NCBI RefSeq assembly: GCF_006345805.1
Contig: NW_021833662.1
Location: forward strand, 1 to 58,204
From: Octopus sinensis
Lineage: Eukaryota
Direction of reading: 5' to 3'
DNA: 58,204 bases
Shown here: piece by piece, positions 19,001-25,436 of the stretch
How the letters are laid out: each line of letters starts with the position of its first letter
How positions within the stretch are numbered: position 1 is the first letter of the stretch
The notes under the pieces: generated by a model
Told to the model about the DNA's origin: nothing
What the model saw: the letters and a program-made list of their open reading frames with translations, nothing else
Databases searched by the model: none
Position numbers and translations under genes: made by a program

Positions 19001-19548
19001 GGCTAGCGATCAATCATGTGTATGTGTGTGTGTGTGTGCATGGGTATGTGTGTGTTTGTGTATACACACACATATATTTTTATATATTTGAACATTTTCC
19101 TATTCCTTTGCGTTACTCATATTTTCTGTCTGTAGTCGCAAGGCTTTTTTTCCGTTGTATAATTATTATAAATAATTTTGTTAGTCGTGTTTGTTTATGT
19201 TATTGTCCTGTACGTTCGTTAGATATTCCCAATGGCTTTTTGCAACTGGCGCCAACAAGAGGGATTAGCTACGAATTTTCCGTTTGTTATGGTTTTGTCA
19301 AATTTACCATTTCGAATGTCATTAAAAATTAGAATAATTTATTGCCAGTGTTCGCATGCGTAATAAAAGTCATAAGACAACATATTTTTATATATAAGAG
19401 TGTATAAAGGTTTATACACAAAGAGAAAATCATTGATAGGACTTCTTACATGCTAAAAAGGGCAGTTAAATCCCAACCACCAAAAAAAATCATTCTAAAG
19501 GTACGCCGATAATGGCACTAGAATGAAAGGAATTATTATTTTTAGATA

Positions 19549-19618
19549 ATCCCATACGCGAGTTTCCCTATTAATAAGCAAATAAATTAATTTGCCATCC
19601 GTAGTTCATCAGTGGGAT
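19549..19618 (-). ncRNA. Type I hammerhead ribozyme
   Basis: ATCCCA-CTGATGA-A CTA..GGCAAAT/ATTTGCT..TAG G-GAAAC TCGC GTA^TGGGAT, with a perfect 6-bp stem I. Confidence 0.8.
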
Positions 19619-19974
19619 CGCTCAAAAATGCATAATTATGTAGCTTTATGCATACCGAAAAAACCTGTGTCATGGGTCTTCTCTTTGCGTATAAATCTTT
19701 AAACAGTCTTATGTATGAAAATATGTTGTCTTATGATTTGTATTACGCATGCGAACCACTGGTAATAAATTATTCTAATTGTTTACCCTTTATGATTTAC
19801 ACAGTAAAAATTCCCTATTCTGAAGCTAATAGTACACTGCATAAAATTTATTATTTGCTGCTCGCTATGTGGATGCGCTTGCGCACTTGACTTGAATCCA
19901 TAATGAATAAGGATGCAGCTCACACGTGTTTTTCCGGTACGTATTAAGCTACATAATTAAGCATTGTTTTAGCG

Positions 19975-20045
19975 ATCCCACTGATGAACTACGGATGACA
20001 AATTCATATAATTTGCTCTTTAATAGGGAAACCAGAGTATGAGAT
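19975..20045 (+). ncRNA. Type I hammerhead ribozyme (mirror arm)
   Basis: ATCCCA-CTGATGA-...-GAAAC CAGA GTA^TGAGAT, with one stem I mismatch. Confidence 0.7.
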
Positions 20046-20149
20046 TAACTAAAAATAATAATTGCTTTCATGCTAGTGCCATTATCGGCGTGTCGATAGA
20101 ATTAATTTATCGTGGACTGGATTTAACTGACCTATTTGTATCAACGCAC

Positions 20150-21260
20150 TATAGAAGCAGGTAGTAATTTTCCCTTGTACTTATTGTTAGTGCAAGTTTT
20201 GAATAGTGCAGTACGATTTTAACAGCTATATATTCAAAACTATAATAGAAGTGACAAAGGAGCATATTCGGCTTATTTTGCTTTATGAGTTCAATAAAGG
20301 CAACAACGCAATGGTACGTGCGAGGAATATTAATGTAGTAAATGAGTATCAGACAATAAGAGTAAGCCAATGTCAACGGTGGTTCCAGAAATTACGAGCC
20401 GGAAATTATAGCCTTCAAGACAAGCCTCATCCTGGAAGATCTGTAGAGCTCGACGAGGACGTGCTACAAACCCTTTGTGGAACAATATTACATCGTAACC
20501 GTTGAGGAACTAGGAGAGCCATGAATTTGGTCATTCAACCATTCGTCGACAGATGCATGCCATATCAGCAAATTGGGTCAATGGATTCCTCACAAACTTT
20601 CCGAGTCTGATCGCGTACAGAAAGTGAATGTGTGTTCTTTGCTGTCACGTCTCACGAATGTGCCTTTTTTCGACCAAACAGTGACTGGTGACGAGAAATT
20701 GGTTCTTTATAAAAATGTCAATCGCCGAAGATAGTGGATAGGGAAAGGAGAAATACTGGCACCCCAGGTGAAAGGTCTTCACCCACATAAGGTGTTGTTT
20801 TTGTTTGGTGGGATATGAAAGGTTTAATCCACTTTGACCTTTTAAACTCAAACCAAACGATAATAAAGGACATCTACTGCGAGCAGCTTGAGCGGCCTAA
20901 GTCAGCGCTAGAAGAAAAACGACCATCTTTGGTTTCAAGACGAAAGGTGTTCTTCCATCAGGATAATGCTCGGCCAAATGCAACGAGGATGACATTCGAA
21001 AAGCTGGAGCAGCTTGAATAGGAAACGATGTCCCACCGACCATATTCGCCGGACATTGACTCATCTGATTACCACTTATTCCGCAGTCTTCAAAATCATT
21101 TGGATAGAAAAACTATGAATTCTGGAGATGAGGTCAGAACAGTACTGAAGGAGTATCTTTCGTTACGGAAAAGTGCATTTTGGAAGAGGGATTAAAAGAG
21201 CATAGTAGAGAATGAAGGAGAGTATATCTTAGATTAAAAAAAGATTTGTGTTTATCTTAC
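20150..21260 (+). mobile_element. Decayed mariner transposon (second family)
   Basis: EVTKEHIRLILLYEFNKG, QRWFQKLRAGNYSL, WIPHKLSE, VTGDEK, FHQDNARP, PYSPDIDSSDYHLF, with stops and frameshifts. Confidence 0.92.
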
Positions 21261-22435: not shown

Positions 22436-24228
<1,793 letters not shown>

Positions 24229-25284
24229 AGTATATATTTTGTATTTTTGATTTTGATTTTGACTCTTGAACGATGAGTGCTACGATGGATTTTGATTTTG
24301 TTTTTGTTTCCAAGCTATGCGGATCTTAATCCGTATAGCAAAATCTTATGTTTCTACATATATATTAGGAAAAACCTACAAACTTTGTTTTCATGTTATT
24401 GTATTGCATAGGATTACCTTGATTATTTATATTACCTTGATTATTTATAAATGACCCAAAATAGGATGTTATATTTTATTTTATATGTCTTCGTATATAT
24501 TTTTATTAATGCACCCATTTTTAAAAGCAATGTTTTTTTTTAAAAAAAGCAATGTTGTCAAAATTAGAATGTTTATATAAGTATGTGTATAGCAAAGCAT
24601 ATGTATTTGTAAGCATGCGTATCTGTGTATGTGTAAGTGAAAGTATGTTTGTGCTTAAGCACACATATACACGACTGTATGTATGTGTATCCATTCAAAC
24701 TTGTGTATGTATACTGGTCTTTATATATGTCAATAATACCGTTACACTGCTTGTATACATAATTTTTTCTTATTTCGTTTTTTCCCCACCCCTCCTTCGT
24801 TCCTTTTTCTCTCTCTCCCTTTCTTTCGTTTCCCCTCCTTGCTCAGTATATGAGAATTGCTACATAGATAAATTTTAGCTTGCGTACGAGACGGTTTGCG
24901 TGAATATATGTACACATGCTTTTATGTGTATATTTAGATCTATATTCATACGTCTGTGTATGTATGGCGTTTACGCGCATCCTTTTGTGTATGTTGATAT
25001 ATATATGTAGATTTTAATATAAATATGTATTGCAGTATTTATAACAGGTTTAATTTCTATGCATTAATTTGCACTGTCTTCATTAACGTCAATAGGTTTT
25101 TTCCTCGGATTTTATAATTCTTATAAGTTTTTTATATATATATACATATATTTTTGACCTTTTTGTTTATCGCTCGAAGATTGACCGTTTTTTCTAAAGG
25201 GCCAATCAAACAAGTCCATTTCTTTTTAAAGGTGTAGCGTTTGTAAGAGTATAGATTGAGTTGATATATCAGTTCCATTCTAGC

Positions 25285-25332
25285 AAAAACTGTCTGATGA
25301 ACGGCAACGAGAAACTCAGAGTAACAGATTTT
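25285..25332 (+). ncRNA. Type I hammerhead ribozyme at the PLE 3' end
   Basis: AAAAACTGT-CTGATGA-ACG GCAA CGA-GAAACTCAGAGTA^ACAGATTTT. Homologous to 9022-9067, with two pairing mismatches. Confidence 0.8.
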
Positions 25333-25359
25333 GTTGAATTTTCTGCTGCTTAAAATAAA

Positions 25360-25436
<77 letters not shown>

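What the first reader, a model, noticed from the sequence alone, without database searches (positions are those of the whole stretch)
19451..20141. MITE look-alike whose 'TIRs' are ribozyme cassettes
The ~220-bp arms have many substitutions, but CTGATGA, GAAAC and GTA are unchanged in both. Unlike the other HHR fold-backs it is not directly bounded by (TA)n, and it abuts a mariner. It is the best single test case for the two-polarity element hypothesis.
Basis: partly seen in the sequence, partly recalled or inferred. Interest (0 to 1): 0.7.

Follow-up and report, generated by a model that had tools for sequence, protein, structure and literature searches.

The report
Decayed retrozyme inserted back-to-back, Penelope-style
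This fold-back is an old, decayed pair of back-to-back pieces of a dispersed 479-base non-coding repeat that carries one predicted self-cutting hammerhead RNA per unit and was likely pasted in by a Penelope-type retrotransposon enzyme; it is neither a MITE nor an element with ribozymes in both polarities.

Summary
The arms are real (19455-19670 vs 19922-20137, 83% identical, hammerhead core unchanged), but they are not terminal repeats. The element spans 19324-20137: two pieces of a circularly permuted ~479-nt, ORF-less unit with one type I hammerhead, joined 5'-to-5' at 19667/8. Across 73 loci, 3' ends cluster at two sites ~90 nt apart beside (TA)n, while 5' ends scatter. 34 loci are inverted, no other locus repeats this junction, and 19 of 21 scorable loci have one end of each type. 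A young RT/GIY-YIG element in this genome shows the same layout. Arms of one insertion are closer (13.5%) than different loci (20.4%). Between arms the core decays like other sequence (21/125 vs 584/4419), so the unchanged core here is unremarkable (P about 0.10). The unit has no antisense hammerhead. Here the right end is cut off against a truncated mariner. Verdict: a new family of animal non-LTR retrozyme with Penelope-type insertion anatomy. Opposite-strand hammerhead pairs, inverted 5' copies and one-sided tails are published, and this scan already noted the two-ended pattern for other families in this genome. Cleavage, circular RNA and the enzyme partner are untested.

The parts
19324..19667 (-). 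Left piece of the 479-nt unit (unit positions 366 to 479, then 1 to 230; position 1 = first base after the predicted cleavage site). Its 3' end lies in the family's long-end zone, about 20 nt short of the mode.
19668..20137 (+). Right piece, nearly one full unit (unit 114 to 479, then 1 to 97). Its 3' end is about 65 nt short of the family's short end (about 162); inferred secondary deletion.
19667..19668 (.). 5'-to-5' inversion junction; not found at any of 72 other family loci; bridged by an independent contig
19549..19618 (-). Type I hammerhead motif, left: 6-bp helix I, CTGATGA at 19612-19606, long helix II, 2-bp helix III with mutated loop, GTA at 19557-19555 (predicted cleavage between 19555 and 19554)
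19975..20045 (+). Type I hammerhead motif, right: CTGATGA at 19981-19987, GTA at 20037-20039, one helix-I mismatch, helix-III palindrome broken
20138..21259 (+). Neighbour, not part of the element: decayed mariner lacking its first ~75-80 nt (including the left TIR) and its right TIR
19092..19323 (.). Neighbour: an unrelated dispersed repeat, cut short of the (TA)n at which many of its other copies end

Best explanation
19324-20137 is a decayed, back-to-back pair of pieces of a dispersed, ORF-less 479-nt repeat with one predicted hammerhead per unit (a non-LTR retrozyme), likely inserted in one event by a borrowed Penelope-like (PLE) reverse transcriptase/endonuclease. SHOWN: circularly permuted unit; two fixed 3' ends ~90 nt apart next to (TA)n; scattered 5' ends; inversions joined 5'-to-5' at non-recurring points; one end of each type per inverted locus; arms of a locus more alike than different loci. 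INFERRED: the enzyme cuts both strands of a TA target, each freed 3' end primes reverse transcription at one of two internal start sites on the repeat RNA (a circle or an uncut multimer, since copies run through the cleavage site), and the two cDNAs are joined where they stop. The two hammerheads face opposite ways only because the same unit was copied from both sides. After insertion both arms decayed neutrally, and a later deletion (inferred) removed the right end, the TA target and the 5' end of a mariner.
For: Unit and permutation; 27 of 129 segments exceed one unit, and 4 hold two full hammerheads in tandem. Ends: 92 of 129 3' ends fall in two windows that cover 13.8% of the unit, against 14 of 129 5' ends; TA runs lie within 30 nt of 62 of those 92 ends and 10 of the other 37. 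Orientation: 35 divergent junctions in 34 of 73 loci; the 1 convergent pair is the join of a local duplication (L175). End asymmetry: 20 of 22 junctions with both ends canonical (19 of 21 loci) have one short and one long end. Divergence: arm-arm median 13.5% (n=24) vs 20.4% between loci. At this locus, 14.2% is about the sum of each arm's distance to the majority, 6.5% + 8.4%. Core not protected between arms: 21/125 vs 584/4419, P=0.23. In-genome control: a young 727-aa ORF element (RT motifs recalled; a 43%-identical homolog has a Pfam GIY-YIG hit in the aligned region) has an inverted 5' copy with opposite-strand hammerheads in 3 of 5 loci picked for ORF length; all 3 inverted loci whose ends I read have one short and one ~70-nt longer end on (TA)n. 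Literature: PMC4209133, PMC8557442, PMC11167929, PMC7229834, 10.64898/2026.07.22.740005.
Against: No autonomous partner with matching ends was found: the unit has no significant match to the young PLE, and only 1 of 73 loci has a PLE-like ORF fragment, ~500 nt away from the unit. This locus itself has neither a (TA)n flank nor a modal end, so its history is read from the family. 13 of 35 junctions have at least one end outside the two windows; the windows were drawn after seeing the first 57 loci, and two queries favour long-end copies. The ~90-nt tail is longer than the published 30-40 bp. Family-wide the core is more conserved than background (5.5% vs 11.0%). After dropping subfamily-diagnostic columns this persists in one subset (5.2% vs 7.7%, P=0.005) and vanishes in another (7.1% vs 7.6%, P=0.32); I read it as selection on source copies, but that is inference. 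The 10.1-11.1 pair is non-standard in 43 of 47 copies, so cleavage activity is uncertain.
Confidence: 0.85

Rival explanations
1. Two-polarity ribozyme element: the fold-back is itself the mobile or replicating unit, with a hammerhead used on each strand, as in ambisense viroid-like circles.
For: Both strands of this locus carry an intact core; 8 of 34 inverted loci have the core in both arms. Ribozymes blocked by self-pairing do occur in viroids and plant retrozymes (PMC7229834 discussion), so the predicted blocking does not exclude it alone.
Against: The unit has no antisense core even at 1 mismatch. Each strand has one cleavage site, so no unit can be cut out. The junction is unique among 73 loci; the near-matches are one local duplication and two pairs with different outer ends. 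The core is not protected between arms. Both helix-III palindromes are mutated (predicted dimer helix -10.7 kcal/mol for the majority, -5.5 left, +1.1 right), and in the full transcript helix I has pair probability 0 on both strands, with the antisense arm transcribed first.
Confidence: 0.02
2. MITE or other non-autonomous DNA transposon, possibly moved by the adjacent mariner.
For: Long inverted arms around a spacer; mariner directly adjacent.
Against: Family sequence extends beyond the left 'TIR'; no direct repeat flanks the stated ends; no second copy has these ends. The mariner's missing 5' 110 nt (with its TIR) has no match near the locus, and the mariner is truncated exactly at the contact.
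Confidence: 0.01
3. The pieces are only 5'-truncated pLTR ends of an autonomous PLE not yet found, rather than a free-standing non-autonomous unit.
For: Truncated PLE ends give the same opposite-strand pairs (PMC4209133; L165). Genome searches score only the top 40 candidates each, so a divergent parent could be missed.
Against: 27 of 129 segments run through more than one whole unit with no ORF between (up to 920 nt); no ORF abuts any segment.
Confidence: 0.08
4. Two independent insertions, or a post-insertion inverted duplication, made the fold-back.
For: This locus is rearranged at its edges; one local duplication of a fold-back exists (L175).
Against: 35 divergent vs 0 genuine convergent junctions; mixed end types in 19 of 21 loci; arms more alike than loci. 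A DNA-level duplication would copy the same end twice.
Confidence: 0.04

Closest known systems
Animal non-LTR retrozymes (PMC7229834: passages, sections 14 and 17 read; bioRxiv 10.64898/2026.07.22.740005: parts 1-3 of 5 read)
   Same: ORF-less, AT-rich unit with one type I hammerhead, 2-bp helix III with palindromic tetraloop, head-to-tail permutation, co-occurring PLEs proposed as the mobilising enzymes.
   Different: Unit 479 nt (170-400 in the first paper, 51-972 in the second); mostly 0.5-2 units per insertion; about half of the loci inverted with two fixed ends, which the parts I read do not describe; 10.1-11.1 pair mostly non-standard; circular RNA not shown here.
EN+ Penelope-like element insertions (PMC8557442: passages; PMC11167929: parts 1-2 of 4 read)
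   Same: 5' truncation, partial tandems, inverted 5'-truncated copy, tail at one end only, (TA)n target, two internal RT start sites, both target strands extended in vitro.
   Different: No ORF; tail ~90 nt instead of 30-40; no homologous autonomous partner identified.
Minimal hammerheads of PLE pLTRs (PMC4209133: parts 1-2 of 4 read)
   Same: That paper already reports pairs of hammerheads ~100-700 bp apart on opposite strands in Schistosoma mansoni, ascribed to truncated PLEs; dimer-dependent short helix III.
   Different: Here helix II is long, helix I has a predicted distal extension, and the host unit is a self-contained permuted monomer.
MITEs / Tc1-mariner derivatives (defining features recalled)
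   Same: Inverted arms, no ORF, a few hundred bp.
   Different: No fixed termini, no TSD, no recurring structure, no match to the neighbouring mariner's TIR.

Membership tests
Non-LTR retrozyme | Type I hammerhead motif in each unit | tested here: met
   Core, helices I-III in the majority; 84.6% of cells paired, 18 cells with changes on both sides vs 7.8 shuffled (relatedness inflates this). Rfam gave no hammerhead hit for 19300-20250.
Non-LTR retrozyme | Head-to-tail, circularly permuted monomers | tested here: met
   27 of 129 segments longer than one unit; 4 with two full hammerheads in tandem
Non-LTR retrozyme | No protein-coding capacity | tested here: met
   Six-frame translation of the majority unit is full of stops; no tblastn match to the PLE protein
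Non-LTR retrozyme | Self-cleavage of the RNA | not testable with these tools
   Needs an assay; 28 of 56 genomic hammerheads keep all 11 core bases, 11 of 56 also keep palindrome and helix I
Non-LTR retrozyme | Expression as circular RNA | not tested
   No RNA run was laid on the element
PLE-type insertion | Variable 5' truncation, fixed 3' ends | tested here: met
   92/129 3' ends vs 14/129 5' ends in two windows
PLE-type insertion | Inverted 5'-truncated copy at the 5' end | tested here: met
   34 of 73 loci, including this one
PLE-type insertion | Tail extension at one end only | tested here: met
   19 of 21 scorable inverted loci; ~90 nt rather than 30-40. Not scorable at this locus (right end lost).
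PLE-type insertion | AT-rich / (TA)n target | tested here: met
   62 of 92 canonical ends; absent at this locus
PLE-type insertion | Autonomous PLE with homologous pLTR or ends | tested here: inconclusive
   No match to the one PLE family examined; other PLE families not surveyed
MITE | Terminal inverted repeats at fixed ends shared by copies | tested here: not met
   Family sequence continues past 19451; 0 of 72 other loci share the structure
MITE | Fixed-length target-site duplication | tested here: not met
   No direct repeat at 19451/20141 or at 19324/20137; elsewhere TA runs hide any TSD
Ambisense ribozyme RNA (viroid-like; definition recalled) | Ribozyme in both polarities of one unit | tested here: not met
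   No antisense core in the unit at up to 1 mismatch
Ambisense ribozyme RNA (viroid-like; definition recalled) | Unit propagated as such | tested here: not met
   Junctions do not recur between independent loci

The most novel reading that the evidence does not exclude
The family is a genomic record of a Penelope-type enzyme dimer priming from both target strands at two different fixed sites, one per strand, on a circular hammerhead RNA. That would explain the PLE inverted copy and the one-sided tail as one event, and show directly that PLE enzymes move animal retrozymes, here with a hammerhead that tolerates a mismatch at its normally conserved 10.1-11.1 pair. I did not find the one-end-of-each-type rule stated in the passages read or in searches; earlier notes of this scan report it for other families.
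Probability: 0.4. Interest if true: 0.55.

Novelty: new member of a known kind. Interest (0 to 1): 0.27.

Why it matters
The locus itself is a dead copy and removes support for a two-polarity ribozyme element. It also shows how PLE-type insertions can be mis-annotated as MITEs. The family-level pattern has some value: how PLEs make inverted copies and tails, and which enzyme moves animal retrozymes, are stated as open in PMC8557442 and 10.64898/2026.07.22.740005. One short and one long end per inverted insertion, seen here in an ORF-less family and in a young ORF-bearing element, gives a concrete prediction for the existing in vitro PLE system. Younger families in the same genome are better material than this one.

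Tried and rejected
Rfam: only microsatellite-driven miRNA matches among the listed hits for the window, and no hammerhead for 19300-20250; the motif was assessed by hand and with my own model, which matches its training copies by construction. Expression: no RNA holder listed; nothing follows from this. Partner search: the unit does not match the young PLE family beyond two short AT-rich hits at E about 0.01; a DNA search from a divergent copy returned only more family members. A genome-wide search by RNA structure was not available, so divergent partners remain unsearched. Pfam and PDB sequence searches gave nothing for the 727-aa ORF; its assignment rests on recalled RT motifs and a homolog's GIY-YIG hit; its clade (possibly Hydra-like) was not tested. 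The idea that the element inserted into the mariner was rejected because the mariner's missing 5' part is not on the far side. No enrichment of 5' ends at the cleavage site (3 of 101 in unit 1-20). Junction microhomology is 0 to a few bases and was only read by eye. My first hammerhead scan of the window was too strict and printed nothing; it was redone. One search gave no result. Rows left out: 3 of 51 hammerhead copies with large deletions were not aligned in A2; mariner, left-flank and PLE loci (L050-L073, L134-L171) were excluded from family counts. Supplements of the papers were not read (those of the bioRxiv preprint are closed) and may describe inverted retrozyme copies.

Full report
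OBSERVATION. The arms exist: 19455-19670 and 19922-20137 align over 218 columns at 83%, with CTGATGA, GAAAC and GTA identical. Each arm reads as a type I hammerhead: 6-bp helix I, core, long helix II, and a 2-bp helix III with a 4-nt loop. There is no (TA)n at either end, and mariner sequence (HTH_48 and Transposase_1 hits) begins at 20138. Contigs from other studies bridge the inversion junction (1 of 4 runs among the listed pieces), the left junction (3 of 4) and the mariner junction (2 of 4) with no differences (the table is cut). The structure is therefore real and shared with runs labelled as two other organisms.

WHAT THE UNIT IS. Searches of the window's own 2.7-Gb genome (the DNA searches score only their top 40 candidates) gave 139 locus records that merge into 73 distinct loci with 129 segments. 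They map to one circularly permuted ~479-nt unit with no long ORF. Numbering from the predicted cleavage site, this locus is a minus-strand piece 366->230 (19667-19324) and a plus-strand piece 114->97 (19668-20137), joined at their 5' ends. Both inverted repeats are just the overlaps of these two pieces. 27 of 129 segments are longer than one unit and 4 hold two complete hammerheads in tandem, so the unit repeats head-to-tail with nothing between. The unit has one core, on one strand; the other strand has none at up to 1 mismatch.

ENDS AND INVERSIONS. 50 of 129 3' ends fall at unit 146-171 (mode 162) and 42 at 226-265 (mode about 250); only 14 of 129 5' ends fall in those windows, which cover 13.8% of the unit. 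TA runs lie within 30 nt of 62 of these 92 ends and 10 of the other 37. There are 35 divergent (5'-to-5') junctions in 34 loci; the single convergent pair is the join of a local duplication (L175). No other locus matches this junction within 15 nt. Three pairs of junctions are within 10 nt of each other: the L175 duplicate, and two pairs whose outer ends differ. Of 22 junctions with both outer ends canonical, 20 have one of each type (19 of 21 loci; P about 1e-4 against 50%); 13 junctions have at least one non-canonical end. The windows were set after the first 57 loci; the 16 later loci gave 5 mixed (4 distinct), 0 same-type and 2 unscorable.

Arm versus copy: arms of one locus differ by a median 13.5% (n=24), segments of different loci by 20.4% (5762 non-independent pairs), so arms come from one source. 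Here 14.2% roughly equals 6.5% + 8.4% to the majority: independent decay, no homogenisation. Core conservation: across the family the 11 core bases vary less than background (39/703 vs 11.0%). With subfamily-diagnostic columns removed, the effect persists in loci found by hammerhead-free queries (P=0.005) and disappears when loci picked by the core-containing pattern are excluded (P=0.32). Between arms of inverted loci, which measures change after insertion, the core is not spared (21/125 vs 584/4419, P=0.23). I infer selection on source RNAs, not on inserted fold-backs. At this locus 15 unchanged positions have P=0.10, and both helix-III palindromes are damaged. TSD: none at this locus; elsewhere TA runs hide any.

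FLANKS. Other mariner copies carry ~75-80 further nt and a TIR upstream of the point where the window's copy begins, and that missing part is not found near the locus. The plus piece stops ~65 nt before the short end. I infer a later deletion that removed the element's right end, its target and the mariner's 5' end. The left neighbour is another dispersed repeat cut short of its usual TA end. The mariner contact is thus an accident and the lack of (TA)n is secondary (inferred).

IN-GENOME CONTROL. Window 22560-25365 is a copy of a young element with 727-aa frames. RT motifs are recalled; a 43%-identical homolog has a Pfam GIY-YIG hit in the aligned region. Of 8 loci fetched, 3 were chosen for inverted RT pairs and 5 for ORF length; 3 of those 5 have an inverted 5' copy, one as an 882-bp fold-back with hammerheads on opposite strands directly upstream of the ORF. 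In all 3 inverted loci whose ends I read, one end is short and one ~70 nt longer, both on (TA)n. The same geometry thus arises from ordinary PLE insertion in this genome. This element is not shown to be the partner: it shares no significant sequence with the unit.

MECHANISM. Shown: the anatomy above. From the literature: a purified PLE protein cuts and extends both target strands, prefers AT-rich DNA and starts at two internal sites that bracket the genomic tail (PMC11167929, parts 1-2 read). PLE insertions often carry an inverted 5'-truncated copy and a one-sided 30-40-bp tail (PMC8557442, passages). Inferred: each target strand primes at one of the two sites and the two cDNAs are joined at their truncated ends. 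Copies run through the cleavage site, so the template was a circle or an uncut multimer; the data do not separate these, nor one RNA from two RNAs of one source. That paper saw no strand difference in start site in vitro, so the one-of-each rule is an added constraint. For the locus today: each strand has a single cleavage site, and in the full transcript both hammerheads are predicted to be paired with the opposite arm, so it is most likely a dead end.

COMPARISON. It works like, and by all sequence-testable features is, an animal non-LTR retrozyme (PMC7229834; 10.64898/2026.07.22.740005); cleavage and circular RNA are untested. Opposite-strand hammerhead pairs 100-700 bp apart were reported in 2014 and ascribed to truncated PLEs (PMC4209133). 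It fails the MITE and ambisense tests. Earlier notes of this scan describe the same two-ended, back-to-back pattern for other hammerhead repeats in this genome (looked up after my own counts, unchecked AI notes, some of which call the animal an octopus); none matched this family by sequence. Paper searches listed no description of this family, which is weak evidence given the library's limits.

VERDICT. New member of a known kind; interest 0.27.

Noticed in passing
window 22560-25365 (+): Young, 5'-truncated RT/GIY-YIG element with a minimal hammerhead at 25294, ending in (TA)n. Genomic copies have 727-aa open frames, inverted 5' copies and two ends ~70 nt apart.
   Followed up: partly
window 25288-25330; family unit positions 429/467: The 10.1-11.1 position is an A-A mismatch in the young PLE hammerhead (the same in all 8 fetched loci) and A-G/A-A/A-C in most copies of this family, whereas G-C is described as highly conserved in PMC4209133.
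   Followed up: partly
window 936-2360: Young tandem-plus-inverted array of a ~360-nt unit (97-99% identity) between TA runs; by eye it has a hammerhead-like fold with a U3-A8-type core near 2153 (+).
   Followed up: no
window 2469-2814: Short fold-back (85%) beside TA runs with weak matches to my hammerhead model in both arms and an altered first core box.
   Followed up: no
L169:6700-7500: Another ~540-nt tandem repeat with a type I hammerhead whose helix-II base resembles this family's but has a standard G-C pair.
   Followed up: no
L175: A whole inverted insertion duplicated in tandem 1.2 kb apart (same junction twice), apparently a local DNA duplication.
   Followed up: partly
window 9030 (+), 56806 (-), 29645 (+), 3937 (+): Further hammerhead-like motifs of other repeat families.
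   Followed up: no
unit positions 133-152 (window about 19395-19415): The majority unit has a perfect 9-bp hairpin just upstream of the short 3' end, and a TACAC motif precedes both 3' ends; this recalls the AC-rich stem-loop start site in PMC11167929 (by eye).
   Followed up: no
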